From Candidatus Woesearchaeota archaeon (GTDB taxonomy: Archaea; Nanobdellota; Nanobdellia; Woesearchaeales; UBA525), in assembly GCA_027371725.1 (NCBI GenBank), contig DAHXMN010000001.1:400-64399 (forward strand): a stretch of DNA of 64,000 nucleotides, in the 5' to 3' direction. Under the pieces are notes generated by a model. It was given only the letters and a program-made list of their open reading frames with translations. It was not told the DNA's origin and ran no database searches. This document shows, one piece after another, positions 8,655-30,630 of this stretch (position 1 is the stretch's first letter; each line of letters begins with the position of its first letter). The position numbers were made by a program, and so were the translations under genes.

Positions 8655-8727
8655 AGCCCCGTAGTGTAGCGGCCAATCATTCAGCCCTCTGGAGGCTGAG
8701 ACCTCGGTTCGAATCCGGGCGGGGCTA
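8655..8727 (+). tRNA. tRNA-Gln(CTG), intron-less; the target of the integrated element
   Basis: Acceptor AGCCCCG/CGGGGCT plus A. Anticodon stem CAGCC/GGCTG with loop CT-CTG-GA. T-arm CTCGG-TTCGAAT-CCGGG. Confidence 0.8.
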
Positions 8728-8731
8728 TTAT
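8715..8731. repeat. attL: 17-bp core CCGGGCGGGGCTATTAT overlapping the tRNA-Gln(CTG) 3' end
   Basis: An identical 17-mer recurs at 30614..30630, and a 14/17 degenerate copy at 36044..36060. Confidence 0.8.
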
Positions 8732-8909: not shown

Positions 8910-10253
8910 TTACGGGGCTTCATTGATAATTGTGACTGCCTCGGAGGATGTATGACGTTTTAGTTCTCTCTCGACGCGAAGGGTTTGGAGGATCGCTTGG
9001 ACTTCTTTGAGTGCCTCGTCTTGATTCTTGACTTGTTCTTGAAGTAAGACGATGTCGTTGGTTTTCTCTTGTAGTTGGCGCTCGAGCTCAGTCTTGGTCA
9101 CATCGACGTAGAGGTCGTCCTCTTGGATGGTGTCTTTCATGCCGAGGAGCTCTGTGTAGTAGTGGATCATGTCGGATTTCTTCCAACCGAAGCGGTACTT
9201 CAGAGCCGACTCGCTTTTGTAACGTGGCAGCCAGTAGCAAGCGCTCGCGTGGCGGAAGTCATACATGGTTAGTCCGTCGGCAATGATGTAGTATTTTCCG
9301 TTCTTCATCTGGGTTGTGCCTTTGAACTGACCGATTTTCAGAATTTTGAACCCCATGTTCTTGAGATATTTGTTGACGTTCGCGGGCGTCTTGGTGAACA
9401 AAGGAGTCTCAGGCCTGAGGCGTCTGTTGACGATGAACTCGCGGAGAAACCCACTGCAGAGCAGGAGTTTGATGCGTCGCCCGAAGGTCTTGCTCACTTC
9501 CTCCCGGATGGTAAGCGTATAGTGGCCGTCCTTCTCATTCCATTCGAGGTCGCTAACCCGGATGTTCATCATCTCCGTCGGGGCGCGGATACCGCTATCG
9601 AACAAGAAGAGCATCATAGTGCGATAGTAGAAGTTCGCTTCAGCACAGAGCTTGTTCAGATCGTCGATGGTAAAGTAGTTGAACTTTGGTTTGTCATCCC
9701 GACCATCCAGGTCCACTGTGACGTCGATTACAGCGACTCCTTTCTTGCGCTGTGTGCGCTCATACCAGTGCCAGAACGCCTTGAACGCCTTGACATACGT
9801 TCCCGCCGCCTTGATGGGAATGTGGCCCTTCGAACGCCCTCTAATCTCGCCTTCTCGCATCCGCTTGAGAAGGACCATGAGATCGCGCTCTCGGTCTGCC
9901 ATCTCGGGGATGTATGTAACGCCTAGCTGATCCTGGAGAATGATTGCCCAACTGTGTAGCTTGGTCTTGACGTTCCGGAGTCGGATGTAGGATCGTGGTC
10001 CTTTCGCGCTCTCGGGGCTGACATTTGCGCCGACTTCCATATCATCGAGATACTGGCGAAGCAGAGCAGCATTCTCTTCGGTGAGTTGTTCGAAGGGGCC
10101 GCCAAGCTCATAGCGCCAGTGGCGATAGGCTCGTTCGCTGTTGTGCGGGTCAATCTTTACCAAGGGCTTTACCTTCATCTTATCGACGGTACAGGGAGGG
10201 GGAGTTTTTAAAGACAGTCGAGGACGAATGGATATTTTCGAGTCGACGACCAC
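8910..10253 (-). CDS. int: tyrosine recombinase / integrase
   Basis: 447 aa. C-terminal catalytic signature YDFRHASACYWL (HxxR) ... MIHYYTE (nucleophile Tyr). Adjacent to attL. Confidence 0.8.
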   Translation of the reverse strand: MVVDSKISIRPRLSLKTPPPCTVDKMKVKPLVKIDPHNSERAYRHWRYELGGPFEQLTEENAALLRQYLDDMEVGANVSPESAKGPRSYIRLRNVKTKLHSWAIILQDQLGVTYIPEMADRERDLMVLLKRMREGEIRGRSKGHIPIKAAGTYVKAFKAFWHWYERTQRKKGVAVIDVTVDLDGRDDKPKFNYFTIDDLNKLCAEANFYYRTMMLFLFDSGIRAPTEMMNIRVSDLEWNEKDGHYTLTIREEVSKTFGRRIKLLLCSGFLREFIVNRRLRPETPLFTKTPANVNKYLKNMGFKILKIGQFKGTTQMKNGKYYIIADGLTMYDFRHASACYWLPRYKSESALKYRFGWKKSDMIHYYTELLGMKDTIQEDDLYVDVTKTELERQLQEKTNDIVLLQEQVKNQDEALKEVQAILQTLRVERELKRHTSSEAVTIINEAP

Positions 10254-10415: not shown

Positions 10416-10562
10416 ATGGTCAAAACGAAGATGCTCGTCATCAGGATCACGGAGAAGCAAGAGCAAACGCTCCGGGAGATGATGCTTACGCTCGGTTTCA
10501 GAAAGAAATCGGAGTACATCCGCTCAGCACTCTTCAAAAACACCGGGGTGACGAAGAAATGA
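10416..10562 (+). CDS. small ribbon-helix-helix (CopG-like) protein, 48 aa
   Basis: MVKTKMLVIRITEKQEQTLREMMLTLGFRKKSEYIRSALFKN. Not in the ORF track (under 60 aa). ATGA overlap with the next ORF. Confidence 0.5.
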   Translation: MVKTKMLVIRITEKQEQTLREMMLTLGFRKKSEYIRSALFKNTGVTKK

Positions 10563-10753
10563 ACGAATTCGAACTCCTCAGGGGCGAACGCCGCAGCTTC
10601 TTCTGTCCGAACAAACTCTGGAAAGAGCTCCTCGCACAGACGGATGACTGCGTTAGCGTTAGCACCTTTATACGACAAGCGATAATTGAGAAGATGTCGA
10701 AGGAATCGCCTGAACGCGAAGAATATTTTCAGAGTCTGCTTACAAGTGATTGA
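10559..10753 (+). CDS. small putative DNA-binding (RHH-like) protein
   Basis: 64 aa ... STFIRQAIIEKM. Preferred over the antisense ORF 10391..10678. Confidence 0.45.
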   Translation: MNEFELLRGERRSFFCPNKLWKELLAQTDDCVSVSTFIRQAIIEKMSKESPEREEYFQSLLTSD

Positions 10754-10767: not shown

Positions 10768-11808
10768 TTATCTTGTTTTAATCTCTCCAATCGTGACAAT
10801 TTCAGGATTTAGTTCTTTGATTGTCTCGGCGATGTCTTTGAGAGTGTTTTTGACAAGATCGCCAGTATTGTTCTTTGCAGTGACTTTATCCATTTCTTGT
10901 TCGAGAACTTTCTCGGATGCTGATTTTCCCACTATGCTCTTTATTTTTTCTAAATCTTTTTCACGGTCATCTAATATATCTGCGAATTTAAGCATCTTTG
11001 CCTGTAGTTTAATTATCTCCGACGGTGTTTTCTTTATTTCGTGAGCATAGTCCTTCGCATCTAGGTCGATTGTCTTCGCGTATAACCTGAATGCATCGGC
11101 CATCTCTTTATAATTTTCTACACCGACGGTGATTGACCCGCCGAAGTATGAAAGTTTCGCAACAATTGTCTTTTTCAGTTCATTCTCGAATGCTTCTTTC
11201 TCCTCGGTCCCTAAGGATGTTTTTTCGGAGAGGTTCTGAAGTGATATGCCGAGTAAAATCGGATTTTCTGTCGTGAAGGTCAACGTTTTCTGTCTTCCAT
11301 CAACAGCAATTCTCACCGAATCGCTGAACGGCTCTATGCTAAGGAGCTTTTTGTAGGAATAGTTATAGCTCTTGAATTGACCAGCATAGATAACTCTTTT
11401 TGAGGTTATATACAAGATTCCTGAGTCGATTTTGCGGAGTTCACCATGTGATTCAGCTTGACCGGAACCCATGTTGAACCACCAGCCCTTTGCAATTCTG
11501 ATACTGTGCCCAGTCCTGACATAATTTCTTATCGCGCGCTCTTCATAGAGGCTTGAAGGTTGGGCATACGTGATAATCTCATCTTTAGGGAGAATCAGCT
11601 TTGCTCGAGCATTCTTGACGTCTTCCTTCATTTCAATATACTTCTCGAATTGCATCACCGGCGATTCTTTCTTTTTTGAGTTGATTGCCCAGCTAACCAA
11701 GTAAATGATAAGACAGATGATGCCTATTGGCCATAAAACAATCAAAAGAATAATGATAAGTATTCTGAGCCAGATATTCAGCCCATCAAACCACGACTTG
11801 AAGGACAT
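10768..11808 (-). CDS. membrane-anchored hypothetical protein
   Basis: N-terminal TM (ILIIILLIVLWPIGIICLIIYLVSWAI) followed by a soluble domain. AT-rich codon usage like the rest of the element. Confidence 0.55.
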   Translation of the reverse strand: MSFKSWFDGLNIWLRILIIILLIVLWPIGIICLIIYLVSWAINSKKKESPVMQFEKYIEMKEDVKNARAKLILPKDEIITYAQPSSLYEERAIRNYVRTGHSIRIAKGWWFNMGSGQAESHGELRKIDSGILYITSKRVIYAGQFKSYNYSYKKLLSIEPFSDSVRIAVDGRQKTLTFTTENPILLGISLQNLSEKTSLGTEEKEAFENELKKTIVAKLSYFGGSITVGVENYKEMADAFRLYAKTIDLDAKDYAHEIKKTPSEIIKLQAKMLKFADILDDREKDLEKIKSIVGKSASEKVLEQEMDKVTAKNNTGDLVKNTLKDIAETIKELNPEIVTIGEIKTR

Positions 11809-11826: not shown

Positions 11827-12597
11827 TTATTTATAAAACATTTTCTTTTTTGTCATTTTCAGCATCTTTTTGCTCTGTTTTCTTATGGTGACCTCTATCA
11901 CGCCAGTCGTGTTTGCCACCTGTCTCTGTGTTCTCAATTCGCTGTTCTCCTTCGCTGCGAGGTAGAGGGCTGCCGCTACGATGGTCTCGGGGCGTTGTCC
12001 CCTACTCTTTTGCCGCTCTACAATCTCGGCGGCCCGGCTGATGGTCTCTGCTTTGAGTTCAAGGCGTGAGCCGAAGCGCTGGACGAGATCTACGGGCTTA
12101 ATCGGGCTCAAGCGCAGGCCGAGCCCCCTAGTGAGGAGTCTGTAGGCTCTGAGCATCTTCGTCTTGCTGACGCTGCTGTAGGCCGTAATCTCCAGCGGTG
12201 TCTTGGGGATGTCGTGGAGGAGACAGGCGGCGTAGACGCTCGCGTAGAGGAGGCTCTGGTTGTCCCGTCCCCGATTGAGGCCTTTCTCGGCTGCTTGGGT
12301 GAAGATGAGGAAGGACTCGGTGGTAATCCGGTCTGGGAGCTTGAGCTTGCCCGTCAGGAGGCTAATCTGTGCCTTGGCGGCCTGGAGGTTCTTCTGCTTC
12401 GTGCTGAAGAGCCAGGCGGTTTTGACAATCCTGCCATCGTATTGGAACGTTCCGGCTGTCGCTACAGCGGGCTGCGCAGGGCGGTTTATTTCGCCTTGGT
12501 GCTCGGTTGGGCTGTCTTCGGTGATGAGGCCGCAGGCTATGCAGACGACCTCGTATCCGGCTTCTTTGAGGGTTCCGCCGCATTCAGGGCATCTCAT
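11827..12597 (-). CDS. tfb: transcription factor B (TFIIB) homologue encoded on the element
   Basis: N-terminal Zn ribbon MRCPECGG...VVCIACG, two cyclin-like repeats, and C-terminal HTH RTQRQVANTTGVIEVTIRK as in TFB. Confidence 0.75.
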   Translation of the reverse strand: MRCPECGGTLKEAGYEVVCIACGLITEDSPTEHQGEINRPAQPAVATAGTFQYDGRIVKTAWLFSTKQKNLQAAKAQISLLTGKLKLPDRITTESFLIFTQAAEKGLNRGRDNQSLLYASVYAACLLHDIPKTPLEITAYSSVSKTKMLRAYRLLTRGLGLRLSPIKPVDLVQRFGSRLELKAETISRAAEIVERQKSRGQRPETIVAAALYLAAKENSELRTQRQVANTTGVIEVTIRKQSKKMLKMTKKKMFYK

Positions 12598-12896
12598 GAT
12601 TCCACCTCCTCCGTGAAGTACAGGAGCACTGGCATGATCTTCTTTTCGTGGAGTTCCTTGACCCTTGCCAGTGCCTGTTCGACGCTGAGGCAGAGCTCCA
12701 TCTTGTAGCCTACCGGCTTGTCCCCTTCGAAAAGGTTCCTGATGGGCTTCTTCAGGTCTATTCTTCGTCTTCTATCGTTGTAGAAGACCTTGCCAGCGAC
12801 GCTGATAATTTTATCCTGCGTGGTGACTGGCTGCTGCATACAACACCCCCTTTGGCTTGTTGCTGTTGTTGCACTCCCAGCCGAATCAGAATTCAC
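12594..12896 (-). CDS. hypothetical small protein (start uncertain; could begin at MQQPVTT)
   Basis: ATGA overlap with tfb. No recognisable domain. Confidence 0.4.
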   Translation of the reverse strand: MNSDSAGSATTATSQRGCCMQQPVTTQDKIISVAGKVFYNDRRRRIDLKKPIRNLFEGDKPVGYKMELCLSVEQALARVKELHEKKIMPVLLYFTEEVES

Positions 12897-13356
12897 ACAC
12901 TAGGTGTTATTCTGCCTCCGGCGGGGACACGGATGCACTTAGCCTAGTACGGCAAGCGCATATCCCGGGGCTCGCAGCCGTAGCTAACACGGTGCTTCCA
13001 GAATTCGATGCCATTCGTGTTAGCCATAATAATCACTCCTTTGGAATGGTAGTAATTCGTTCCCCTATATAAATTTTCGCCGCCGTTGTCCGAAAGATTT
13101 TCGGATTCACTTGATTCGCTCCCAGCCGGACTGATCCTGCTGTGCGAGCCATGCTTCGAACTCTTCAGCGGTTACCACGAACCATTTCTCCATACGTTCC
13201 GGTTGCTTGTTCTGGTTCATATGTGTTCACCTCGTTCCGACGAAGGATTTTCGCGCCCCCGACGATTAGGACCCTATATTGGAGCCAATGGTGCCCGAAT
13301 TCGACGTTTATAGCCAGTATTAGGACCCTAAATCCGCCCATAATGTATGTTCTCCC

Positions 13357-16305
13357 TTACCGGGAGGTTTGGGTCCTAATGAACTCCTGGAGTTCGGTGC
13401 GGACGAGGAGGCGGACGCCCGGAGCGATGCGCTCGTAGTGCGGTCTGAAATCGCTGTCCGCGAGGATGATGACGAGTCGCTTCCCGTATTGGTTCTTGAG
13501 TTCTGCGAACTTCTTTTCAAGTCGAGATTTGTGCTTCTTGAATCCGAGACCAGTTTCTACCTCTACCGCGATCTCTTTTCCGGCCTTGTTCTTGAAGAGC
13601 AGGTCGACTTTGTCAGTCACGCTCACGTCAACTGCAAGCCCGCGTTTCATGAGTTCGTCTTTGAGGTTTAGAACGATGAACGTATGCTCTGGGCTCTCAA
13701 TGTTGTTGTCCTTAATCCAGCATTCTTCCTGGCGCGGCTTCCCAATCGGCATGAACATTCCTGGCGAGTAGCCTTGATTGGTGAGGAAATTCTTCTCATC
13801 TATGGTGAGATCTGCACCGTAGTAGAGCCCTTGCTTCGGATCAAGGGTGATGTTGACCTCGCGCCGCTCATCGGGAACGACTTTGCTCTCAGATTCGTTC
13901 GGGTTCGTGGTGACCAGAAGGTGCTCTTTCTCGGATGCGATGACGGTGAGTTCCTGGTGGTCGTTGTCCAGAATCAAGATGCCCCTGCCTTGCGTGGCGG
14001 TAAGGAGGTATTCGCGTTCCGGGTTGCTCAGATGGAACGTTCTGACGACCGAATCGATGATCGCGGCTTTCTGGCGGAGGAGGAAGCTGTAGCTGCTGTT
14101 CGCAAGGACTGCGTGTCCCGCGCCGCTGTTGATGAGGTCAGCCACATCCTGCGTGATGAGCAGGAGGCCCATGTTGAACTTTCGGCACGTCTTGACAATC
14201 TCGAAGAGGTAGCTCGCTTCTTCTGTGTGGCTGAGGAGGCTCCACGCTTCGTCCACCACCAGGAGTTTTTTGCCGGGGCGGCGCTTCATGGTCATGTAGG
14301 CGTAGTCCAGGATGAGGAACATGACGACGGGCTTGACTTGCTTGGGCATATCCCCTATGTTGAAGCAGACGAAGTCCTTGCCGTAGTTGATGTTGCTCTG
14401 CTTGTTCAGGAAGCCGAAGACACCCTCGGTGTAGAGGTAGAGGCGGTTGATGAGCGCCCGGTACGTGACCTTCTCAGACTGCGCCGCCTGGGAGTCCATG
14501 CTCACGAGAGTGTGGTACAGGTCGCCCAGGATTGGCGGCTTCTTGTTCTTGTACACGTCAGCCGTGATGCCCTTCTTGGCGTAGGTGACGTTGACTGCCC
14601 GGTCCAGGATGCTCTTCTGGATCTCGCTGAGCTCGCCGAACATGATTCGGAACAAGTCCATGAGCGCCAGGCGTTTTTCGACGTAATCGTGGCCCATGAG
14701 GTCGAGGGGGTTGATGATGGTCGCGCTGGTTCGGCTTATGGTGACGTGCTCGCCGCCACAGGCCTGGACGAGCCCTGCATACTCGCCTTGCGGGTCCACG
14801 ACCGTGACGCACGTGCCGTTCATGAGCTGGCGGCTGATCATGAGCTTGGTGAAGTAGCTCTTTCCTGCACCACTGGTGGCGAGGACGATGCCGTTCGCGT
14901 TGCTCAGGCTGAATAGGTCCTTGATGTAGGGCACCCCGTTCTTGTTCAGGCCGAGGAGGGTTCCGGTCTCCTCCATGGTGAGGAAGGGGCTGGTGCATGG
15001 GAAGAACGCGCTCAGAGCCCCGGTGGTGACGTTGCGTTTGAGGCCGAGCCAATCCTTGCCCAGGGGCATCATGGCTTTGTACGCCGCTGCCTGGCGAAAC
15101 AGGGGCGTTGTCGGGATAATCATGATGCTCTGGAGCTCTGCCTCTACTTTGCGGGTCAGGAGGTCCAGGTCGGCCTTATTCGCGGCTTTACACGCGATTA
15201 AGAGGCTGACATTGAAGAGCTTCTCCTCGCCCTTCTGGAGCGCCTCGAGGACCTTGAGGGTGTCCTTGTACTTAATCTCCAGGGAGGGGTTGACGCTGTG
15301 GTGCTGTTCCTCCGCATACAGGTCGGCTCGTTGCTTCTGGAGCTCCCGGTTCAGGAGGACCATCGTTGATTCGATGGTGAATGGCTCAATCTGGATGCTC
15401 AGGTCGTAGTTCTCATTGCTGCTGATGAGCTTGTCCAGGAAGCCACTTTCCACGAGGCGCGGGTACCCGTCAGCCGCGATGACCCTGATGAGCTGGCCGT
15501 CGACTTGGAGGTGGTCGATGTTGTCCCTGACCCTGCCTGGCGCCAGGAGGTAGTGGAGGCCGGAAACCCCGATCGGAGGCTCCCGGTCCGACGCCCGGTA
15601 GTATCGCTTGAGCATCTCCAGTAGCGCCTTGTCGTTCAGCCGGACGGCGTGCAGGCCGAGCCCTTTGAGTCGGTCAAGGCAGACCCTGCATTGGATGTCC
15701 AAGCTGCTCCGTTCCGGGATGATGAGGTAGAACTCCCGGTTGCGTTGCGTCGCCATCCGGCTCTTCGTGAACGCGGCGAACTCGTCATAGAGCGTCTCGT
15801 TCTTCGTCCGTTTCTTGAGGCTCTCCAGGTAGGGTTCGAGACTGAGCTCTTGCGTCGTCACGATGAACTGGACGGGGAACTCGAGGCTATTCAGGAACTT
15901 CTGGAACCCGATGATAATCGACTCCTGTTCTTCATTCGTTTTGATCCCGAAGTTCAAGGGCGTAATCCGAAGCAGGGCGACCTTCTCTTCGGAGACGATG
16001 GTGTTGTTCTCAATCTTCTTGACCGGGACGAGGCGCTCCATCCGCTTCGTGCCGAGACGGGACTCGCGGAACTGGAGGTATCGGGAGGCGTTCCGCAGCC
16101 AGATGCCGAGGTCGAAGAAGATGAACATCATTCCCAGGACGAAGGGGATGATGGCGAGGCAGAGCTTCAGGTCCATGCTCAGATTGCTCGTCAGGACCAT
16201 CAGGGTGAGGGTGCCGAAGAGGGCTGCCCAGCCGAGTTGGACGAAGGTCAAGCCGAACATGATGCGCTCTTTGTGCTGGAGTTGCTGGGGAATTTCGTAG
16301 GCCAT
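13357..16305 (-). CDS. VirB4/TrbE/TraC-like conjugation ATPase (AAA-like, DUF87-type) with N-terminal TM segments and a C-terminal nuclease-like domain
   Basis: 982 aa. Walker A TSGAGKSYFTKLM, Walker B LLVVDEAWSLL and N-terminal hydrophobic helices. Confidence 0.7.
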   Translation of the reverse strand: MAYEIPQQLQHKERIMFGLTFVQLGWAALFGTLTLMVLTSNLSMDLKLCLAIIPFVLGMMFIFFDLGIWLRNASRYLQFRESRLGTKRMERLVPVKKIENNTIVSEEKVALLRITPLNFGIKTNEEQESIIIGFQKFLNSLEFPVQFIVTTQELSLEPYLESLKKRTKNETLYDEFAAFTKSRMATQRNREFYLIIPERSSLDIQCRVCLDRLKGLGLHAVRLNDKALLEMLKRYYRASDREPPIGVSGLHYLLAPGRVRDNIDHLQVDGQLIRVIAADGYPRLVESGFLDKLISSNENYDLSIQIEPFTIESTMVLLNRELQKQRADLYAEEQHHSVNPSLEIKYKDTLKVLEALQKGEEKLFNVSLLIACKAANKADLDLLTRKVEAELQSIMIIPTTPLFRQAAAYKAMMPLGKDWLGLKRNVTTGALSAFFPCTSPFLTMEETGTLLGLNKNGVPYIKDLFSLSNANGIVLATSGAGKSYFTKLMISRQLMNGTCVTVVDPQGEYAGLVQACGGEHVTISRTSATIINPLDLMGHDYVEKRLALMDLFRIMFGELSEIQKSILDRAVNVTYAKKGITADVYKNKKPPILGDLYHTLVSMDSQAAQSEKVTYRALINRLYLYTEGVFGFLNKQSNINYGKDFVCFNIGDMPKQVKPVVMFLILDYAYMTMKRRPGKKLLVVDEAWSLLSHTEEASYLFEIVKTCRKFNMGLLLITQDVADLINSGAGHAVLANSSYSFLLRQKAAIIDSVVRTFHLSNPEREYLLTATQGRGILILDNDHQELTVIASEKEHLLVTTNPNESESKVVPDERREVNITLDPKQGLYYGADLTIDEKNFLTNQGYSPGMFMPIGKPRQEECWIKDNNIESPEHTFIVLNLKDELMKRGLAVDVSVTDKVDLLFKNKAGKEIAVEVETGLGFKKHKSRLEKKFAELKNQYGKRLVIILADSDFRPHYERIAPGVRLLVRTELQEFIRTQTSR

Positions 16306-16306: not shown

Positions 16307-18331
16307 TTACATCATCGCTCCAATGTATTTTGCCGCTTGCATCATGCTCTGGGCCCCGTCGCTCATTCCGGACTTGGTCACGATGTGCTTGGCGAGCAGG
16401 AGGAATAGGAGGTCGATCATGAGGAAGCAGGTGATCATGACGACGATCTTGTACCCGGCAAAGAGGGGTAGGCTAATCATCTGGCTGCAGCCGAGGATGA
16501 TGACTGCGTCCAGGAACGTGACGAAGATGCACAGCCCCAGGAGATTCATGATGAGGTGGCCGTAGCTCCGTAGCGGTGGCATGAAGTAGCAGAACACCCC
16601 GATGGGTGCGAAGAGGACGCCGAACGCCACGATGAGGTAGCGCATGGCCAGGAAGAGCATCGTCACCAGCAAGACCAAGGCATACAGCCCGACCAGGAGG
16701 AGTTCCAAGCCGATGTTGCTGATGTTGTCCGCTGTCAGGAGGAAGAACTGCGGATTGACCAGGCTGAGAACTGCCTGGGTCATGAGGCCGCCGATATCGA
16801 CGATGAGTCCGTAGAGGTAGTAGCTGGCTTGGACGAGGACGATCATGATGACGGTGTTTTTGAGCCATTCCTTGGCCATTTCCCGCTTCAGGACGTTGTG
16901 GCCGCTGGTGAGGAACTGGTACCCGGCATAGAGGAACAGGAACCCGTAGAAGAGGCTCAGGCAGTAGACGATGATTACCCAGACGCCCTGGAAGAGGCTG
17001 ATGCTCGGGGAGGCCTCCAATAAGTCCTTTACGAGGCTCAGAAGCGGCTCCAGCGGGGCGTTGATGATGCTCAGGAGGAAGCTGTAGAGCGCCCCTGGGA
17101 GGCAACTGCCGAGGTTTGTGAGGCCACAATCCTCCGCCCGGACCATCGGCAAGGCCAAGAGGACGCCGAGGCCGATTCCGGGGAGCTTCCGCCAGTACTT
17201 ACGGGAAACCCGGTACGCGGCGACCAGGATGCCCGCGATGACGGCCATTTTGAGGATGAAGACCCAATCTACGGTGACGCTGGGCGGGGTGAACGCCGCG
17301 CTGGGAGGGGCTGAGAGGTTCTGGGCGCAGGGCTTGGTCTGGTTCGTGAAGAAGTCCTCAGCCCTGACCGTGCAGTTTGAGGCATTCGGCACGAAGAACG
17401 TCCCGTTGTACCAGCGGAGGTTCTGCGCCGTTTGGACCTCGAGCTTCTCCGCGTGAAGCTCCAGGAGGTAGAAGGGCTTCTTCGTGAAGTTCGCCGTGTA
17501 CACCCATTCCGTGGCGGAGTAGTTGCTTTGCCCCATGCTGAGCCAGACGCTCGTATTCGCATCATGGACCAGGAACGCCTTCGTAGTGCCCGAGTAGTTC
17601 GTGGCTAGGGTGAATGTGGCGTTCAGGGCGTGGCGGTCATACGTCGTGTTGAGGCTGTCGTTCAGGAGGAGGGTGTCCGTCGTGTAGTTTGTCTTGGTCT
17701 TTGGGCAGCGCCAGCAGTACCGGACGCAGACGCCGTTCCGGGTTCGACAGCAGTACTTCTGCCAGGTGTAGTAGTCGTTCTTGATTGTGGCACGGATGCT
17801 CAACTCCTCTCTGATATTCGCGTCAAAGATCAGGATGTTGATCGGGACGACTTTTCCGGTGCCCATCGTGATGTTGTTCGCCTTCGTTGTGAGGGTGCTC
17901 GTGTTCTCGGTGAGGTAGTGGAGTATCTTGCACGTTGCCCCATTGCTCTGCGAAGGATTAGTGTAATTTGCTGGCACCTTGATCCAGTAGCTCGCCTCGG
18001 AACGGACGGCCACCTTGGCCGGACAGTAGCGAGTCTTGTTGAGCAGGACGCTCGGCTGGATTGTCAAGAGGGCGACCCAGGCATCCATGATGACACCCTT
18101 CTGAATTTTAGTATAACCGAACGGCGCATTGTTGACGACGATGCCCTGATTGTAGGCGGCGATGGCTGCGTGGTCCGGGTGACTCGTGTTCGTGTAGATT
18201 AGGTTGGCGATGAGGTCTTCATTCACCGTCAAAGCGGCGAGGCAGTTCGTCTGGTTCTGGAAGTAGCTGCAGTTGAAGGCAGCGGTAGCTGGGACGAAAG
18301 CGAGAAATAAAAGGAGAAAAAGAGGTTTCAT
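16307..18331 (-). CDS. large polytopic membrane protein with a signal peptide and a heavily N-glycosylated ectodomain (VirB6/TrbL-like candidate)
   Basis: 674 aa. Signal MKPLFLLLFLAFVPATAA. About 25 N-x-S/T sequons in the first 350 aa. At least 6 C-terminal TM helices. Confidence 0.6.
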   Translation of the reverse strand: MKPLFLLLFLAFVPATAAFNCSYFQNQTNCLAALTVNEDLIANLIYTNTSHPDHAAIAAYNQGIVVNNAPFGYTKIQKGVIMDAWVALLTIQPSVLLNKTRYCPAKVAVRSEASYWIKVPANYTNPSQSNGATCKILHYLTENTSTLTTKANNITMGTGKVVPINILIFDANIREELSIRATIKNDYYTWQKYCCRTRNGVCVRYCWRCPKTKTNYTTDTLLLNDSLNTTYDRHALNATFTLATNYSGTTKAFLVHDANTSVWLSMGQSNYSATEWVYTANFTKKPFYLLELHAEKLEVQTAQNLRWYNGTFFVPNASNCTVRAEDFFTNQTKPCAQNLSAPPSAAFTPPSVTVDWVFILKMAVIAGILVAAYRVSRKYWRKLPGIGLGVLLALPMVRAEDCGLTNLGSCLPGALYSFLLSIINAPLEPLLSLVKDLLEASPSISLFQGVWVIIVYCLSLFYGFLFLYAGYQFLTSGHNVLKREMAKEWLKNTVIMIVLVQASYYLYGLIVDIGGLMTQAVLSLVNPQFFLLTADNISNIGLELLLVGLYALVLLVTMLFLAMRYLIVAFGVLFAPIGVFCYFMPPLRSYGHLIMNLLGLCIFVTFLDAVIILGCSQMISLPLFAGYKIVVMITCFLMIDLLFLLLAKHIVTKSGMSDGAQSMMQAAKYIGAMM

Positions 18332-18660
18332 CCGACCAGGTATTGCACGACGAGCGGTGCAACCCAGATGATGATGAGGCCCACCACGATGTACCCCGCC
18401 ATGGTCTTGGCGGACTCGCGTTTGGCCGTGTCGTCGCCGCTCATGATGAACGTGACACCCGCAAAGACGAGGAACAGCACGGCAAGGACCGTGGCCGCGT
18501 ACTTCACGAAGTTGTACACCTTCATCACAGGGCTCAATATCTGGTCGAACGTCGCTTGGTCCTGGGGCGAGATCGTCTGATTGAACTCGACCGCCATGAC
18601 GAGCGGCGTGATGCTCAGGAAGAGCATCACCAACAGCAAGGCAGTTTTCATTCTTGGCAC
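18328..18660 (-). CDS. pilin-like small membrane protein (VirB2/TrbC-like candidate)
   Basis: 110 aa with a signal peptide plus two hydrophobic helices. Overlaps the upstream gene (ATGA). Confidence 0.5.
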   Translation of the reverse strand: MPRMKTALLLVMLFLSITPLVMAVEFNQTISPQDQATFDQILSPVMKVYNFVKYAATVLAVLFLVFAGVTFIMSGDDTAKRESAKTMAGYIVVGLIIIWVAPLVVQYLVG

Positions 18661-18838: not shown

Positions 18839-20533
18839 TCATCTTGTGAGCTTAGCTATGAGATTCACAGAATATAATGCCAGAAGATGACGCAAGGGAA
18901 CGCCCCCTCGGGGAGGTTCTCCGCGATCAAACTGTATGTGATTGCCAAGGGGCAATATCACTGCTCCATATTTTTGTTCGGGGAAGTGTTTGTCGACTAG
19001 AGATTTGACCTTCGACAATGCTTCTCTCGGCGTGAAGTGTTGAGAATCTGGCTTAACCAAACAATATTGTTCCTGAAATTTCATCGCTGTAGGTATTCGT
19101 CCTGAGAATGTCCTCTCTACTTGCACCATAAATTCGTTCAGTTTTTCTTCATCCACATCCTTCAGGACTGCCTTGATTTGACTCTGAGTAGGAAGCGCTT
19201 TTTTCATACTGTCTTTTCCTGTTGCATGATGTATGCTCGCTTCCCATCTTATCTTCTTGTTCTGTTTATTCAGTGAGTTAGTGAGCTCGACTCTATAGTT
19301 CCCTTGCTTCAAGTCGGGTACAATCTCTGCAAATGTTGAGTAGATATCACGATTTCGTGATTTCTTAAGAGATGGCTGCTTTTCTCTGAGATTCGCAATT
19401 AGTTTCTCTTTCTCGGGCCGGTGTATAAATGCCTCTGAAGGTGTTCGTTTTTTATGCTCGATAAGTATTGCTCTGGCAAAAGCAGCCGACATCTTTGGGC
19501 ACACCGCATTTCCGACTAGCCGATACTTAGTCGATTCATTGCTTCCTTGAAAGAGATATGTGAGAGGAAACGACATTAAAGCGGCAACTTCTCGAATAGT
19601 TGGCGATCGATATATTTCTGGATGACCATTACGAAGAATCATTGATTCTCTCGACACTACCGATTTGGTCGCCATTACAGTCCTACTCGGTTTTGATTCG
19701 TCTTCTGGGAAGCTCATCCGACCATAGTATCTTGCTTGAAGCTTCTTGTTTCTTGCGTCTTCCCACTCGAAACGAGGTATCGTGGTGTCATAGAAATGAT
19801 CTGTAATCTGGATATTGGAGATAAGGATGCCGTAATTTGGATCTTTAATCTGCGACGCGGTTGAACGTAGGGCATCGAGCACATGTCCAAGAGTGACCCA
19901 GTCCTCTTGCGTCGGAGTCGTCGGGGTTGGTTTGATGAACTGACCACAAATGAATCGCTCTCTTCGTTGAGGAACTCCGAAGTGAACTGCGTTATGGACA
20001 TTCTCAAGAGATTTATCGATTCTCAAAGCAACGTCATTCTCGCTAAAATCAATTTTTAGGGCGCGAAGAGTCTTGTTGTCCAGCCCTAGCATCTTGAATG
20101 TGTACTCATCTTTGACATAATTGCGAGAATTTGGCACGTTCTCCATCAACCAATACTTCAATCGAGAGCCTTTCTTGTGCTTCTTAAGAGCGACAATCTG
20201 CAGATACTTCTCTATTAGTTGTATGCCAATCGTTTTGTTGGCGTTGCCTGCACGGTTTGATCCTGAAAATGCTACGCAAGGAGGACTGCCGACTATGACA
20301 TCAACATCGGGAATCATATCATGGGCGATGATTTGTTCAGGACTAAGTTCGAGTACGTCTGTGAGAAGTGTTTGCGCTCCCGGATGATTAAGCTTGAATG
20401 TATTTATGGCTGGTTTCCAATAATCCAGACCAAACTTCACTTCGAAGCCCATCTGTCTGAATCCCTCTGAGAAACCGCCCGCCCCGCAGAAGAAGTCGGC
20501 AACCGTCAGTTTATCTTCGGTCCTTTGCACCAT
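18839..20533 (-). CDS. DNA (cytosine-5)-methyltransferase with a roughly 200-aa C-terminal extension
   Basis: Motif I FCGAGGFSEGF, motif IV GSPPCVAFSGSN and motif VI LMENVPN. Confidence 0.85.
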   Translation of the reverse strand: MVQRTEDKLTVADFFCGAGGFSEGFRQMGFEVKFGLDYWKPAINTFKLNHPGAQTLLTDVLELSPEQIIAHDMIPDVDVIVGSPPCVAFSGSNRAGNANKTIGIQLIEKYLQIVALKKHKKGSRLKYWLMENVPNSRNYVKDEYTFKMLGLDNKTLRALKIDFSENDVALRIDKSLENVHNAVHFGVPQRRERFICGQFIKPTPTTPTQEDWVTLGHVLDALRSTASQIKDPNYGILISNIQITDHFYDTTIPRFEWEDARNKKLQARYYGRMSFPEDESKPSRTVMATKSVVSRESMILRNGHPEIYRSPTIREVAALMSFPLTYLFQGSNESTKYRLVGNAVCPKMSAAFARAILIEHKKRTPSEAFIHRPEKEKLIANLREKQPSLKKSRNRDIYSTFAEIVPDLKQGNYRVELTNSLNKQNKKIRWEASIHHATGKDSMKKALPTQSQIKAVLKDVDEEKLNEFMVQVERTFSGRIPTAMKFQEQYCLVKPDSQHFTPREALSKVKSLVDKHFPEQKYGAVILPLGNHIQFDRGEPPRGGVPLRHLLALYSVNLIAKLTR

Positions 20534-20651
20534 TCTGATCCACTAATTCTTAAACGATCTCCTAATCCCTTTATTTAAATGTTGTCACAGTCGATTCATT
20601 TTTAAAGATGCTGAGAATCAGAAGCCGCATCTGACGCAAGTGTTTGGACGC

Positions 20652-21563
20652 TTATTTCCAGTGCTTTTTGATATAGGCTGTTGCTTCTTTCGTGTTAAGT
20701 TGCTGAGTGGAATTGCCCGTACGTATGAAGAAGTGGGTGGTATCTTTGTTCTCGACATACACTGGTTCGGACGCTTTTTTGACTTGTACTGATGCGACTT
20801 TCTTCCCGTCATAATCTTCAAATGATGTCGAGATAAGCTGTGCATGCTCTTTACCAATATAGTTGCTGACGATTTCCCCTATTTTTAGCTGGAAACCATC
20901 CTCGTTCTGCTTTTTCAAGAGAGAGATGTCCTTTTCCAGTCCCAAGATATTCTTGTCATCATCTATCCCGATTATTAGTCTTCCACCGTCAGCATTCATG
21001 AACCCGGCGATGGTCTTCGCAATGGAGACAATCAAATCCTTGTTCGGTTTGTTTTGTTTATAGTCCCATTCTATAGACGATTTGAATTCGACTGTCTCAT
21101 CCTCGCGTAATGCTTCGAGGCCGGTTTTCTTCTCTCGAATCATTTCTCCTGCGAGTTTTGATGCTTCATTCATCTTTTGTTCCAGAAGAAGCATGAAATT
21201 CTCAGATGTTCTGTACTCCTCGATGAGTAGCTGTAACTCACTCAGGCCAGCTATGGAGTATTCCTCCGCAATCTTCTTGACCTCATTCATGTCCTTAAGG
21301 ATGAGCATATCGCCCGTCTCAGCGACCGCAATTGAGGTAATTAACCAGAGATCCGCGTCAGAAAAACTGTCTGTATTCAGCAAAGGATAGCGTTTGATTT
21401 CTTTTCGTTTCAGTCTCTTCACAAATGCAAGAGACATGCAAAGCATGAAAATGTGCTTTGCTTTCATATTCTGGAAGATGAATCCTTGCTCAAGGTCGTC
21501 GTATATCTTACGAGCGTCCCTGGTTATGTTCAGGTTCCTTCCAAAAAGTTCTCTTAGTTCCAA
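20652..21563 (-). CDS. AlbA_2 (Schlafen-like) domain protein with a DndE-like N-terminal region
   Basis: The C-terminal half (...ADGGRLIIGIDDDKN...FFIRTGNSTQ) is an AlbA_2 core. The N-terminal half (ITRDARKIYDDL...HIFMLCMSL) resembles, from memory, the DndE pattern (TGLxPNLLCRIGFCxSL). Overlaps the SMC-like gene. Confidence 0.5.
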   Translation of the reverse strand: MELRELFGRNLNITRDARKIYDDLEQGFIFQNMKAKHIFMLCMSLAFVKRLKRKEIKRYPLLNTDSFSDADLWLITSIAVAETGDMLILKDMNEVKKIAEEYSIAGLSELQLLIEEYRTSENFMLLLEQKMNEASKLAGEMIREKKTGLEALREDETVEFKSSIEWDYKQNKPNKDLIVSIAKTIAGFMNADGGRLIIGIDDDKNILGLEKDISLLKKQNEDGFQLKIGEIVSNYIGKEHAQLISTSFEDYDGKKVASVQVKKASEPVYVENKDTTHFFIRTGNSTQQLNTKEATAYIKKHWK

Positions 21564-23545
21564 CTCCGCACCTCAGTCACACCATGGCTCATCACGAAAC
21601 GAGATTCCTGAGCTATACGCTTAGAAAGCAAGTCTCTGATTGTGGCAGTATATTCCTGATCCTTCATCAGAAGGACAACCTGTGTTCCTTTGAGATAGTC
21701 TGGCAACTTCCGCGCCACATTCTCTCTTTGTTCATTATCTATGTTTGCTAGGGGCGTGTCGATGAATACTGGGAACTTGAATCCGGAGACCTCGCTCAAA
21801 GCAGCAATGAATGACAACAATAGGAGCTGTTTCGGACCACTTGCGAGATTGTGCATCCAGTTTGTTCCTTTGCCGTCGGTAAGTCTGAGGTCATAATCAT
21901 GATTGATTGTGAACTCAGTATATTTCTCTTTGTCCCAATGGAGTGTTTTGAAGTATTCCCATGTCTTCTCTTGCACTTGTTCTCTGACTTCCTGTAGAAT
22001 CTCTACCTCAATTTTATTCAGTGCATTTGATGCGCGATCAATAAACTCAGCGGTGACCTTCTTTCTTTCTCCGCCTTTCTTCTTCACACCTTCTTGATTG
22101 AGACTTTGTCGTAGTTGACTCAGTTGTCCAGTTCGTAGATTTATGGCGGCAGTCAATCTCGAGACGGAAGCTATTTGAGACTCTCTGTTTGTCATAAGAG
22201 ACTCGCGTTGATTTGTCTGTTGAATTATGTCGTCTTCTTTAGTGTCCTTAAGATTCTTTGATATTTCTTGAAGATCTTTATCGTGCTTTTTATTAAGTTC
22301 CACTAGTTTTTCGAGTTTCTTGTTCAGAGTGGCTATCTCGTTGAGTGATTGAGGGATTTCGCGCTCTAGAATATCGGTGATTCTGAATTTACCTTCTGAA
22401 AGCGTGGCCTTGAATTCATTGAAATTATTCTCTCTAATCTTTTCTTTTAAGAGAGTCACACATTCTTGGTCGTGAGTAGTGTTGAGCGTCCTCCCGCAGA
22501 CGCATTTCTTTTGTCGCAACAGTTCTTCAAGATATTTGTTGTCGATATTTGGCTGGAACTTATCCCTCTCTAATTCAGCATTTATTAGATTGATAAAGTT
22601 CTGCAACGCACCAGATGCGATGGCCAGAGGAGCGGATGATATGGCAATCGTTCTCAACTGTTTCTTGATTTGATCTATTTCTTGGTTATTGGAAGCAATC
22701 TTTTCACGGATATCGCGTTCTTGTCTCGCCCATTCTCGTATGAGTGGGATGTTATAGTCAGAGAGGAACTTCTCGATTCTGTCAATCTCCTCCTTTGCTT
22801 TGGCGATTTCTCCTTTTCGAGTTTCAATAGCTTCCGTATTTCTCGCTATATACTCCTCCGCCTCTTCAATCTCATGGTTCAATTTCGCCATTCCTGCATC
22901 GTATTCGTCGTCTTTATCGGAGGTCCATATCTGATCTCGGACTTTCTGGAGATGCTCTATCGCCAGCTTGACCTGTTTGATTTGAGAGGTTCTTTCGATT
23001 GCTTGGCGGATGTTCTCGTTGTTATTGAATGAGAAGTGCTTTTCGAGCTTCTCACCTTCAAACATGAAAAAGAGGTGGATTTCCCTCGGCAATATGCTGT
23101 TTATTACATTAGTAAAATTATACTCGGGAACGGGTCTACAGTCGTTCTTTTCCCATTCCATTATTGAGCCGGTCGGCTCTTTTAAGATGTGCATCTTGTT
23201 ATTGAGCTTCTGGTACATTGCATCCCGTTTAATCACATAAATGGGCAAATCCGTTTCATCGTCGTTCAAGGTGATTTCAACATAGACGCTATCAATCTCC
23301 TTCTCCTTCATATCGTGTTGTCTGGCGACAGTAAATGCGGGCAAAGTGTGGTCATGACCTGAACTGGTCTCCTCACCATACAAACACCAAGCAATAGCTG
23401 AGAGGAAAGTGGTCTTACCAACGTCAGATTTAGCTTCAATCACAGAAAACTTGTTTTTTGCCTCTTTCTTGAACGTTACAACTATTGGCTTCTCCGGATT
23501 GCTGAACGGACGGAAGTTCTTGAGTTTGATTTCAGAGATCCACAT
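21554..23545 (-). CDS. DndD/SbcC/SMC-like coiled-coil ATPase
   Basis: 663 aa. N-terminal Walker A KSDVGKTTFLSAIAWCLYGE, a long coiled-coil middle, and a C-terminal ABC-type signature/Walker B region ...FPVFIDTPLANID. Confidence 0.7.
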   Translation of the reverse strand: MWISEIKLKNFRPFSNPEKPIVVTFKKEAKNKFSVIEAKSDVGKTTFLSAIAWCLYGEETSSGHDHTLPAFTVARQHDMKEKEIDSVYVEITLNDDETDLPIYVIKRDAMYQKLNNKMHILKEPTGSIMEWEKNDCRPVPEYNFTNVINSILPREIHLFFMFEGEKLEKHFSFNNNENIRQAIERTSQIKQVKLAIEHLQKVRDQIWTSDKDDEYDAGMAKLNHEIEEAEEYIARNTEAIETRKGEIAKAKEEIDRIEKFLSDYNIPLIREWARQERDIREKIASNNQEIDQIKKQLRTIAISSAPLAIASGALQNFINLINAELERDKFQPNIDNKYLEELLRQKKCVCGRTLNTTHDQECVTLLKEKIRENNFNEFKATLSEGKFRITDILEREIPQSLNEIATLNKKLEKLVELNKKHDKDLQEISKNLKDTKEDDIIQQTNQRESLMTNRESQIASVSRLTAAINLRTGQLSQLRQSLNQEGVKKKGGERKKVTAEFIDRASNALNKIEVEILQEVREQVQEKTWEYFKTLHWDKEKYTEFTINHDYDLRLTDGKGTNWMHNLASGPKQLLLLSFIAALSEVSGFKFPVFIDTPLANIDNEQRENVARKLPDYLKGTQVVLLMKDQEYTATIRDLLSKRIAQESRFVMSHGVTEVRSWN

Positions 23546-23732
23546 CTTTGTGCTCCTTCTGGCTGTATCCGTCCGCCCACTGTTTGTAGGAGTCGGTGTA
23601 TCTTCCTTTGGCCGCCGAGAGGTTCTTTAATTCATTCTCAAGAACATCGAGCAGAAACGATTTCAAATGCTCGCTTTCGTCTAATTCGGAGATTTTCCTT
23701 GTGATTATCTTATTCAGTTCTGATCGTCTCAT
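23532..23732 (-). CDS. small helical protein (66 aa) embedded in the operon
   Basis: Its start overlaps the helicase stop (ATGA at 23729-23732) and its 3' end overlaps the SMC start. Confidence 0.45.
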   Translation of the reverse strand: MRRSELNKIITRKISELDESEHLKSFLLDVLENELKNLSAAKGRYTDSYKQWADGYSQKEHKDVDL

Positions 23733-27424: not shown

Positions 27425-27745
27425 ATGGGACACACGGTCAGCAGCCAACGACACGTCACCGACGTCCTCCTCGAAGAGTTCAAGGCCTATGGGAGCAGCT
27501 TGCGACAGGATGAGCGCGTCATGTATGAGCGTCTTGTCAAGCAGGCGTTGAAACACGTGGGGAGCGTCACGTACACGAGCAGCACCGAAGCATGGGCGTT
27601 CGTCCTCCTCAGCATGATGCTCGAACAAGAAAAACGGATTAGCGCCTTGGAGGGACAGAATGAAAGCGTGGTTCATGGACGCGTACCGACACCAGAGCAA
27701 CCTCATCCTCTGGTTCAAGACGCCGGACGAGAACATACGACTTGA
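27425..27745 (+). CDS. hypothetical helical protein (106 aa); may be frameshift-fused to the upstream ORF 27006..27551
   Basis: Plausible K/E-rich sequence. Overlaps the PolB start. Confidence 0.35.
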   Translation: MGHTVSSQRHVTDVLLEEFKAYGSSLRQDERVMYERLVKQALKHVGSVTYTSSTEAWAFVLLSMMLEQEKRISALEGQNESVVHGRVPTPEQPHPLVQDAGREHTT

Positions 27746-30474: not shown

Positions 30475-30630
30475 CATTCTCCGAGGCAAGCTAACAAACA
30501 ATCGCAGACATTCTCATGGCATGAACGAGAATTTTATAAACCGCATCACACCCATTCACACTAGCACGCTGGAGGACTGGTGGAGTCCTCTCGATACCGG
30601 GAACGGCTCACCGCCGGGCGGGGCTATTAT
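30475..30630. repeat. element right-end repeat A (about 155 bp) ending in the attR 17-mer (30614..30630)
   Basis: About 75% identical to 35900..36060. Contains catgaacgagaattttataaa, atcacacccattca and gagtcctctcgatac blocks. Confidence 0.7.

What the first reader, a model, noticed from the sequence alone, without database searches (positions are those of the whole stretch)
11827..12597. A complete TFB (TFIIB) homologue encoded inside the integrated element
All TFB parts are present: Zn ribbon, B-reader/linker, two cyclin repeats and a C-terminal HTH. The gene is AT-rich like the element, not like the host. An element-encoded general transcription factor could redirect host RNAP to element promoters or act as a dominant regulator.
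Basis: partly seen in the sequence, partly recalled or inferred. Interest (0 to 1): 0.6.

Follow-up and report, generated by a model that had tools for sequence, protein, structure and literature searches.

The report
Shortened TFB gene on a mobile element
The gene is a real relative of the archaeal transcription initiation factor TFB and sits inside an integrated mobile element. It is a shortened version that lacks the helices normally needed to open promoter DNA, and it is a fixed core gene of one family of conjugation-like elements in tiny DPANN archaea, an already known kind of association.

Summary
The ORF at 11827-12597 (-) is real and encodes a 256-aa TFB/TFIIB homologue: Pfam TFIIB repeats E 5e-30, and an AF2 core 2.1 A from P. 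woesei TFBc.

It lies in a ~21.9-kb element integrated at tRNA-Gln (att repeats at 8715 and 30614). The element carries a tyrosine integrase, two RHH proteins and VirB2/VirB6/VirB4-like genes.

- The protein is not a complete TFB. It and about 77 related clusters have a reader/linker region ~30 aa shorter than canonical TFBs. The B-reader helix (EWR motif) and the B-linker helix are missing.
- The gene is not AT-rich. Its GC is 56.5% and GC3 0.72, between host genes (GC3 ~0.9) and the defence cargo (GC3 ~0.45).

In every full-length homologous locus examined except the P0028 loci, where no gene was called in the gap upstream, the short TFB directly follows a conserved 81-aa unknown protein. 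It sits in the same T4SS-like, integrase-bearing module. The named hosts are Woesearchaeota/Nanoarchaeota. dN/dS against the 93%-identical copy is 0.07.

TFB homologues on archaeal ICEs and plasmids are already documented. This is therefore a new structural variant of a known kind. The most likely role is an element-specific initiation factor. A non-productive competitor is the main rival. I could not check directly whether the same genome also has a canonical tfb.

The parts
8655..8727 (+). tRNA-Gln (CTG), the integration target. Its 3' end carries attL.
   Evidence: ARAGORN and Rfam.
8715..8731 (+). attL core CCGGGCGGGGCTATTAT.
   Evidence: Exact 17-nt repeat; 0.02 matches expected by chance.
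8910..10253 (-). Tyrosine recombinase (integrase). The gene call in the identical contig is 422 aa, 8910-10178.
   Evidence: Pfam Phage_integrase E 1.3e-4. Relatives 54-82% identical lie next to the module in L003, L005 and L007.
10416..10753 (+). Two small overlapping genes (48 and 64 aa) for RHH-type proteins (weak NikA/MobC-like hits), divergent from the integrase.
   Evidence: Weak Pfam hits. At least one of the pair is conserved next to the TFB in all 11 loci L003-L013; both are found in six.
10768..11808 (-). 346-aa membrane/coiled-coil protein of unknown function. It is low-GC local cargo downstream of the TFB and is not conserved in other loci.
   Evidence: GC 0.40; found only in the identical contigs L001 and L002.
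11827..12597 (-). Short TFB paralogue: Zn ribbon (residues 1-26), a truncated reader/linker (27-65) and two cyclin repeats with a C-terminal HTH (66-245).
12594..12839 (-). orf81, a conserved basic 81-aa protein of unknown fold. Its stop overlaps the TFB start (ATGA), so the two are probably translationally coupled.
   Evidence: Lies immediately upstream of the TFB in 10 of 10 full-length loci in the tblastn maps; an ATG ORF was resolved in 8 of 9. It has 69 homologous clusters. No Pfam match and no PDB fold match.
12944..13073 (-). Likely promoter and leader of the orf81-TFB operon: TATA box TTTATATA (13066-13073) preceded by AAAA, then a 27-aa mini-ORF (12944-13027).
   Evidence: A similar TATA plus mini-ORF arrangement occurs in L003, L005 and L006. 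Function is inferred only.
13357..16305 (-). VirB4/TraC-like ATPase (982 aa).
   Evidence: Pfam P-loop_TraG E 6e-27, DUF87, AAA_10, TraC-like. 48-93% identical copies occur in the related loci.
16307..18331 (-). 674-aa polytopic membrane protein. It is VirB6-like by its position in the operon only.
   Evidence: Conserved next to VirB4 in L003, L004, L005, L007 and L010. Only a weak T4SS_pilin-like segment is detected.
18328..18651 (-). VirB2/TrbC-type pilin (107 aa).
   Evidence: Pfam T4SS_pilin E 5.9e-12, TrbC E 5e-7 (gene call in L001).
18839..26540 (-). Low-GC defence cargo: C5 DNA methylase, Schlafen/AlbA_2 protein, PbeC, PbeA and an N4/N6 methylase.
   Evidence: Pfam. PADLOC PbeC E 2e-150 and PbeA E 3e-218. 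GC 0.42-0.45 for the first four genes.
27660..30469 (+). Family-B DNA polymerase-like gene (723 aa) and an SRAP peptidase gene, at the right end of the element.
   Evidence: Pfam DNA_pol_B E 2e-10. SRAP E 1e-72.
30614..30630 (+). attR of the TFB-bearing element, which is also the left att of a 5.4-kb remnant that ends at a degenerate third att (36046-36063).

Best explanation
The gene encodes a naturally shortened TFB paralogue. It is a core gene of a family of integrative, conjugation-like elements (tyrosine integrase, two RHH proteins, VirB2 pilin, VirB6-like membrane protein, VirB4/TraC ATPase) that live in DPANN archaea of the Woesearchaeota/Nanoarchaeota lineage.

Shown here:
- Location between att repeats at tRNA-Gln.
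- Strict linkage to an 81-aa partner gene and to the T4SS-like module across loci whose GC ranges from 26% to about 60%.
- Strong purifying selection.

Inferred mechanism. The operon is first transcribed by the host machinery from an ordinary TATA promoter. The protein then binds TBP/TATA-BRE through its intact cyclin core and C-terminal HTH, and binds the RNAP dock through its intact Zn ribbon. In this way it assembles pre-initiation complexes on element promoters, such as the transfer operon or the excision genes, and acts as an element-specific initiation factor.

It probably needs help from TFE, from easily melted promoters, or from the co-translated 81-aa partner.
For: - Homology and fold.
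- Ribbon cysteines and HTH residues are invariant across 43 family members. G110, R111, T237 and R239 are invariant even against canonical TFBs.
- A ~30-aa deletion covers the EWR helix and the linker helix. The linker length distribution is bimodal, 82-95 aa against 105-130 aa.
- 77 of 84 short-linker sequences form one clade with no long-linker sequence inside it.
- The same module surrounds the gene in L003-L011 and L037-L039.
- att repeats and the integrase.
- dN/dS is 0.07 overall and 0.14 for residues 1-65. The truncated linker is therefore constrained and not decaying.
- The linker has family-specific conserved positions: P43, A48, G55, W62, T66, K69, N70.
- Retention of both the RNAP-binding ribbon and the TBP/DNA-binding core argues for complete PIC assembly.
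- Literature: every thaumarchaeal ICE identified in that survey encodes a TFIIB homologue (PMC6563490). TFIIB is a core gene of haloarchaeal T4SS plasmids (PMC13532300). Pfu TFB2, with divergent reader and linker, still supports transcription but is deficient in promoter opening and is rescued by TFE or pre-melted DNA (PMC13502027).
Against: - There is no functional data of any kind.
- Mutations and deletions in the EWR and RxRxG clusters of M. jannaschii TFB abolish stimulation and reduce recruitment (PMC3025549). B-linker deletions disrupt opening (PMC13502027). A protein lacking these parts might be non-productive.
- The few clear TATA boxes of element and host genes in this window share the same TTTAWATA consensus, with no visibly distinct BRE. 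No element-specific promoter class was detected.
- The presence of a canonical tfb in the same genome was not verified.
Confidence: 0.5

Rival explanations
1. It is a dominant-negative or competitor TFB. [quoted passage not shown] It therefore represses transcription, either keeping element genes silent in the integrated state or damping host genes during transfer.
For: The functionally critical EWR helix and the linker helix are absent. Mutagenesis of exactly these regions in M. jannaschii and P. furiosus TFB impairs stimulation, recruitment and promoter opening (PMC3025549, PMC13502027). Archaeal paralogues of basal factors are known to evolve into inhibitors, for example TFS4 (PMC7289017).
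Against: The shortened linker is itself conserved and under purifying selection, with a predicted beta-hairpin at residues 50-59. This looks like a remodelled functional segment and not a simple loss. Pfu TFB2 shows that divergent reader and linker regions can still give productive initiation (PMC13502027).
Confidence: 0.27
2. It has a non-initiation role on the element's DNA. The cyclin/HTH core would serve as a sequence-specific DNA-binding module for replication, partition or transfer-origin recognition. The Zn ribbon would serve another partner, for instance orf81 or the VirB4-like ATPase.
For: In thaumarchaeal ICEs the TFIIB homologue sits in an operon with ParB (PMC6563490). Here it is coupled to a small basic protein of unknown fold. 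No relaxase or coupling protein was found in the element, so some DNA-processing functions are unassigned.
Against: Residues shared with genuine TFBs in the TBP/DNA-binding core and in the ribbon are conserved. No known TFB-fold protein has such a role.
Confidence: 0.12
3. It is the host's own essential tfb that happens to lie in accessory DNA.
For: No second tfb lies on this 64-kb window. The rest of the MAG could not be inspected.
Against: The gene lies between att repeats next to an integrase. Its clade occurs only inside the mobile module. It is truncated to a 128-aa remnant in L012 and to a remnant matching only query residues 196-247 in L013, both Woesearchaeota contigs. It scores 145 bits against the 384-bit cut-off of the TFB model.
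Confidence: 0.03

Closest known systems
TFIIB homologues of archaeal integrative-conjugative elements and T4SS plasmids: thaumarchaeal ICEs (Krupovic et al. 2019, PMC6563490), haloarchaeal pHdsl9-3-like plasmids (PMC13532300) and TFIIB in type IV pili loci (Makarova et al. 2016, PMC4858521)
   Same: A TFB/TFIIB paralogue is a conserved gene of an integrated or plasmid element that also encodes VirB4-type secretion or conjugation genes. Its presumed role is regulation of the element.
   Different: The host lineage is DPANN, not Thaumarchaeota or haloarchaea. There is no ParB partner; a conserved 81-aa protein takes that position. No VirD4 or relaxase was seen.
Pyrococcus furiosus TFB2
   Same: [quoted passage not shown] It is expected to recruit RNAP but to open promoters poorly (PMC13502027).
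   Different: Pfu TFB2 is a chromosomal, heat-shock-induced paralogue whose reader and linker are divergent, not deleted. There is no evidence of orthology. The family here is element-borne and has its own conserved short linker.
Sulfolobus TFB3
   Same: A truncated TFB paralogue with a specialised regulatory role, linked to the DNA-transfer (Ced/Ups) response.
   Different: TFB3 keeps the ribbon but lacks the B-finger, most of the cyclin core and the HTH (PMC6101591).
Canonical archaeal TFB (P. woesei TFBc, PDB 1AIS/1D3U; NCBIfam NF001658)
   Same: Zn ribbon, two cyclin repeats and a C-terminal HTH. The core is 38% identical and superposes at 2.1 A rmsd.
   Different: It lacks the B-reader helix and the B-linker helix, and it fails the full-length model cut-off.

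Membership tests
Archaeal TFB / eukaryotic TFIIB | Two cyclin-like repeats forming the TBP/DNA-binding core | tested here: met
   PF00382 matches twice, E 5.1e-30. PDB 1d3u_B E 3.5e-31. AF2 core rmsd 2.1 A with TM-target 0.82.
Archaeal TFB / eukaryotic TFIIB | N-terminal C4 zinc ribbon (RNAP dock binding) | tested here: met
   C3, C6, C19 and C22 are invariant in 43 sequences, and beta-strands are predicted at 9-13 and 16-19. Pfam Zn_Ribbon_TF scores 27.3 bits, slightly below the 29-bit cut-off.
Archaeal TFB / eukaryotic TFIIB | B-reader helix with the conserved (E/D)WR motif, and a full B-reader loop | tested here: not met
   The alignment has gaps where canonical TFBs have GPEWRAY...ERxRRxG. 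The region is disordered in the model (residues 28-50, pLDDT below 50). Spacing is 87 aa against 105-125.
Archaeal TFB / eukaryotic TFIIB | B-linker helix | tested here: not met
   A 15-column gap lies opposite the canonical RLRRLQ-type helix. The NCBIfam match begins only at profile position 118.
Archaeal TFB / eukaryotic TFIIB | C-terminal HTH that reads the BRE | tested here: met
   The segment TQRQVANTTGVIEVTIRK aligns with canonical GVTEVTVRNR. Q224, T237 and R239 are invariant across short and canonical sequences. Actual BRE binding is not testable here.
Archaeal TFB / eukaryotic TFIIB | Full-length family model score (NCBIfam NF001658, cut-off 384 bits) | tested here: not met
   145.5 bits, covering residues 65-247 only.
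Archaeal TFB / eukaryotic TFIIB | Supports TBP-dependent promoter-specific initiation by RNAP | not testable with these tools
   This needs in vitro transcription.
MGE/ICE-associated TFIIB homologues (archaeal ICEs and T4SS plasmids) | Encoded inside a delimited mobile element that has an integrase or replication functions | tested here: met
   att repeats at 8715 and 30614 at tRNA-Gln, plus an adjacent tyrosine integrase. The same att lies next to the 93%-identical copy in L003.
MGE/ICE-associated TFIIB homologues (archaeal ICEs and T4SS plasmids) | Linked to VirB4-type secretion or conjugation genes | tested here: met
   VirB4/TraC-like ATPase, VirB2 pilin and a large membrane protein lie within 6 kb. 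The linkage is conserved in L003-L005, L007, L009-L011 and L037-L039.
MGE/ICE-associated TFIIB homologues (archaeal ICEs and T4SS plasmids) | Operon with ParB (thaumarchaeal ICE subtype) | tested here: not met
   No ParB-like gene was found among the element ORFs scanned. The upstream partner is the 81-aa orf81.
Sulfolobus TFB3-type truncated TFB | Ribbon retained; cyclin core and HTH lost | tested here: not met
   Both cyclin repeats and the HTH are present.

The most novel reading that the evidence does not exclude
The short TFB and its obligatory 81-aa partner form a two-part, element-encoded initiation system. [quoted passage not shown] This would give conjugation-like elements of DPANN archaea a portable transcription switch that works across hosts whose GC ranges from 26% to about 60%.
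Probability: 0.15. Interest if true: 0.75.

Novelty: new variant of a known kind. Interest (0 to 1): 0.42.

Why it matters
Mobile elements that carry their own general transcription factor are the archaeal counterpart of phage or ICE sigma factors, and none has been characterised functionally.

This family gives a compact, strongly conserved natural deletion of the two TFB segments that biochemistry regards as critical for promoter opening. It also comes with a fixed small partner protein. It is therefore a ready-made test of whether recruitment alone, or recruitment plus a trans-acting helper, is enough for initiation.

It also defines a recognisable marker pair (orf81 plus short TFB) for finding conjugation-like integrated elements in DPANN genomes. 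I found no description of such elements in DPANN in the searched literature.

The general idea, a TFB on an archaeal ICE or plasmid, is already published, so the surprise is moderate.

Tried and rejected
- Viral origin. IMG/VR holds only distant, canonical-length TFBs (22-30% identity), and the phage collection gives no match. No capsid genes were seen, so a provirus reading was dropped.
- Known plasmids. 238 archaeal plasmids carry TFBs, but all at about 31% identity and canonical length. None belongs to the short family.
- Fold of orf81. The AF2 model is mediocre (pLDDT 71) and Foldseek against the PDB gave nothing below E = 1. Pfam is empty. An AbrB-like guess from the sequence pattern is unsupported.
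- Element-specific promoter motif. Twelve TTTAWATA boxes (0.46 expected) mark both host and element genes, with no distinct upstream BRE. There are too few promoters to conclude anything.
- Strict monophyly of all short-linker sequences. It was not recovered. 77 of 84 form a clean clade, with weak NJ bootstrap (10 of 25), and 7 low-scoring short-linker sequences fall outside.
- Direct search for a host tfb. There is no second tfb in the window.
- Empty-site comparison in the sister genome. Its contigs break or are rearranged at this locus, so no clean attB was obtained.
- MAG labels 'Bacteroidota' and 'Methanosarcinales' on related loci were disregarded. Those loci have GC 0.26-0.48 and carry the archaeal module.

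Full report
**The observation**

The minus-strand ORF 11827-12597 (256 aa, ATG) exists exactly as stated.
- Pfam finds two TFIIB cyclin repeats (E 5.1e-30). It also finds a TFIIB-type Zn ribbon at 27.3 bits, just under the 29-bit cut-off.
- The best solved relatives are the P. woesei TFB core domains 1AIS/1D3U (E ~3.5e-31, residues 67-252).
- An AF2 model built on 43 relatives has mean pLDDT 85. Its core superposes on 1d3u_B at 2.1 A over 189 columns.

So this is unquestionably a TFB/TFIIB homologue.

**Not a complete TFB**

The NCBIfam full-length TFB model matches only residues 65-247, to profile positions 118-304. The score is 145.5 bits against a cut-off of 384.

I aligned the protein with canonical TFBs from Acidianus, a haloarchaeon and unnamed 315-aa sequences. 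The window protein and its close relatives have gaps at three places:
- the B-reader helix (GPEWRAY-type);
- the B-linker helix (RLRRLQ-type).

Across 180 TFB-like proteins, the distance from the last ribbon cysteine to the conserved GR of cyclin 1 is bimodal. It is 82-95 aa for 86 of the 88 short-linker sequences (64 and 74 for the other two, which are N-terminally incomplete; the window has 87). It is 105-130 aa in 92 canonical-length sequences. No sequence falls between.

In the model, residues 28-50 are disordered. [quoted passage not shown]

P. furiosus TFB1 coordinates for these elements, and the evidence that they are needed for promoter opening, are in PMC13502027. The essential EWR and RxRxG clusters of M. 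jannaschii TFB are in PMC3025549.

**Not AT-rich**

| Sequence | GC | GC3 |
|---|---|---|
| TFB gene | 0.565 | 0.716 |
| VirB4-like and membrane genes | 0.575 | 0.82-0.84 |
| Host genes flanking the element(s) | 0.62-0.65 | 0.78-0.92 |
| Clearly foreign low-GC block (methylase, Schlafen, PbeC, PbeA) and the 346-aa gene | 0.40-0.45 | 0.44-0.51 |

Related loci have overall GC of 0.26-0.48. The core module therefore appears to track its host's composition.

**The element**

- tRNA-Gln (8655-8727) is followed by an integrase (8910-10253, -).
- The last 17 nt of the tRNA region, CCGGGCGGGGCTATTAT, recur exactly at 30614; 0.02 matches are expected by chance.
- A degenerate third copy lies at 36046.
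- About 140 nt before att copies 2 and 3 are homologous to each other. About 60 nt after copies 1 and 2 are also homologous.

This is a tandem array: a 21.9-kb element that carries the TFB, followed by a 5.4-kb remnant.

Gene order in the element:

| Feature | Evidence |
|---|---|
| Integrase | |
| Two RHH genes | |
| 346-aa cargo gene | |
| Short TFB | |
| orf81 | |
| 460-bp leader with a TATA box | |
| VirB4/TraC-like ATPase | Pfam E 6e-27 |
| 674-aa membrane protein | |
| VirB2/TrbC pilin | E 6e-12 |
| Defence island | PADLOC PbeA E 3e-218, PbeC E 2e-150 |
| N4/N6 methylase | |
| PolB-like gene | |
| SRAP | |

**Family and linkage**

The word-indexed protein search returned about 48 clusters of 249-275 aa at 38-93% identity, before any canonical-length TFB appeared. 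The named ones are Woesearchaeota or Nanoarchaeota.

A profile search of 1.84 billion representatives found 11,874 TFB-like proteins. The short family occupies the top ranks as single full-length matches. Canonical TFBs match in two pieces.

In a crude NJ tree of the core domain, 77 of 84 short-linker sequences form one clade with no long-linker member. Bootstrap support is weak, 10 of 25.

Linkage in the genome loci:
- In the 10 full-length loci found in species-representative and identical contigs, the gene is immediately preceded by the orf81 homologue, usually overlapping or within a few bases.
- It is accompanied by the RHH pair, and by the VirB4-like gene and integrase wherever the flanks reach far enough.
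- The widespread Woesearchaeota member P0028, listed in 88 blocks of the collection, sits in the same pilin / membrane protein / TraC-like / TFB / RHH module, with different downstream neighbours in different contigs.
- orf81 has 69 homologous clusters on contigs whose sizes match the TFB-bearing ones.
- L012 and L013 (Woesearchaeota) retain only truncated TFB remnants beside the RHH genes.

**Host**

The window's deoxyhypusine synthase finds its best named relatives in Woesearchaeota/Nanoarchaeota, at 55-62% identity. The host is therefore most likely an unusually GC-rich member of that DPANN lineage. This rests on a single marker.

The closest canonical-length TFBs to the short family that carry names are also Woesearchaeota, Nanoarchaeia or Nanoarchaeota proteins. 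This suggests the element gene derives from a DPANN host tfb, and it shows that the phylum has ordinary TFBs.

**Selection**

Against the 93%-identical copy in L003, dS is 0.46 and dN is 0.033, so dN/dS is 0.07. The ratio is 0.14 for residues 1-65 and 0.06 for the core.

Family-wide invariant positions include the four cysteines, G55 and K69 in the short linker, and E235, T237 and R239 in the HTH.

**Mechanism**

Shown: the protein keeps the ribbon (the RNAP dock binder in canonical TFBs) and the complete TBP/BRE-binding core. It lacks the helices that contact the template strand and stabilise the bubble.

Inferred, as the best-supported reading: it is an element-specific initiation factor that assembles PICs on element promoters but opens them inefficiently unless helped. 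This follows the behaviour of Pfu TFB2 (PMC13502027).

The main rival is a non-productive competitor or repressor.

The operon itself has a consensus TATA box (TTTATATA, 13066-13073) like the host genes in this window, so host factors can start its expression. No distinct element promoter class could be demonstrated with so few promoters.

**Comparison with what is known**

- TFIIB homologues are reported in every thaumarchaeal ICE identified in that survey, there coupled to ParB (PMC6563490).
- They are reported near type IV pili or secretion loci (PMC4858521).
- They are reported as core genes of haloarchaeal T4SS plasmids (PMC13532300).
- 238 archaeal plasmids in PLSDB carry one.

An element-borne TFB is therefore a known kind of thing. 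[quoted passage not shown] I rate this a new variant of a known kind, of moderate interest.

**Limits**

- Whether the same genome has a canonical tfb could not be checked.
- Host taxonomy rests on one marker and on the labels of related contigs, and some MAG labels are evidently wrong.
- The tree is crude.
- All functional statements are inference.

Noticed in passing
window 8715-8731, 30614-30630, 36046-36063; 30475-30613 vs 35904-36045; 8845-8906 vs 30700-30761: There are three copies of the tRNA-Gln 3'-end att site, with homologous element ends beside them. This indicates a tandem array: the 21.9-kb TFB element plus a 5.4-kb degraded relative, which holds an Ig-like/beta-propeller protein, SHOCT and an EamA transporter.
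   Followed up: partly
window 26435-26945 vs 33051-33563; L014 7461-8529: A ~510-nt repeat (86-91% identical) covers the 5' end and upstream region of the N4/N6 methylase gene. In the sister genome (GCA_014874255.1) this methylase piece lies directly next to the P-type ATPase gene and a tRNA, so the region is a mosaic that is rearranged between close relatives.
   Followed up: partly
window 18839-25873: A low-GC (0.42-0.45) defence island sits inside the element: a C5 cytosine methylase, a Schlafen/AlbA_2 protein, PbeC (PADLOC E 2e-150) and PbeA (E 3e-218). These are components of the Pbe restriction module associated with DNA phosphorothioation. No dnd modification genes were seen nearby.
   Followed up: partly
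window 27660-30469: A family-B DNA polymerase-like gene (723 aa, Pfam E 2e-10) and an SRAP (SOS-response peptidase) gene lie at the right end of the element. The polymerase could be a self-replication function, like the PolB of one thaumarchaeal ICE, but it was not classified.
   Followed up: no
window 12594-12839 (-): orf81 is a conserved basic protein (GKVFYNDRRRRIDLKKPIRDLFE...PVLLYF) that is always immediately upstream of the short TFB. It has 69 homologous clusters, no Pfam family and no PDB fold match, and its AF2 pLDDT is only 71.
   Followed up: yes
window 12944-13073 (-); L003, L005, L006 upstream of orf81: A consensus TATA box is followed after about 38 nt by a Shine-Dalgarno-like sequence and a ~27-37-aa mini-ORF, in the long leader before orf81. 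The arrangement recurs in several related loci and may be a regulatory leader peptide.
   Followed up: partly
window 683-783 (+): An intron-containing tRNA is detected by Rfam (48.6 bits) but not by ARAGORN. Its 3' end (771-787) resembles the att core with 2 mismatches.
   Followed up: no
L012 10097-10483; L013 10001-10156: Truncated remnants of the short TFB (128 aa in L012; a remnant matching only query residues 196-247 in L013) sit beside RHH genes in Woesearchaeota contigs. No VirB4, orf81 or integrase homologue was detected in these loci, so they look like decayed copies of the element.
   Followed up: partly
L003, L006, L008-L011 (record titles): Public MAG titles call these contigs 'uncultured Bacteroidota bacterium' or 'uncultured Methanosarcinales archaeon'. 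They carry the archaeal TFB/VirB4 module and have GC 0.26-0.48, so the taxonomic labels look unreliable.
   Followed up: partly
L016-L036 (IMG/VR contigs): Twenty-one viral-collection contigs, including three giant-virus MAG contigs, encode TFB/TFIIB-like proteins at 22-30% identity; most matches span the canonical length, and the three giant-virus contigs match only part of the query. They are unrelated to the short family and were not examined further.
   Followed up: no
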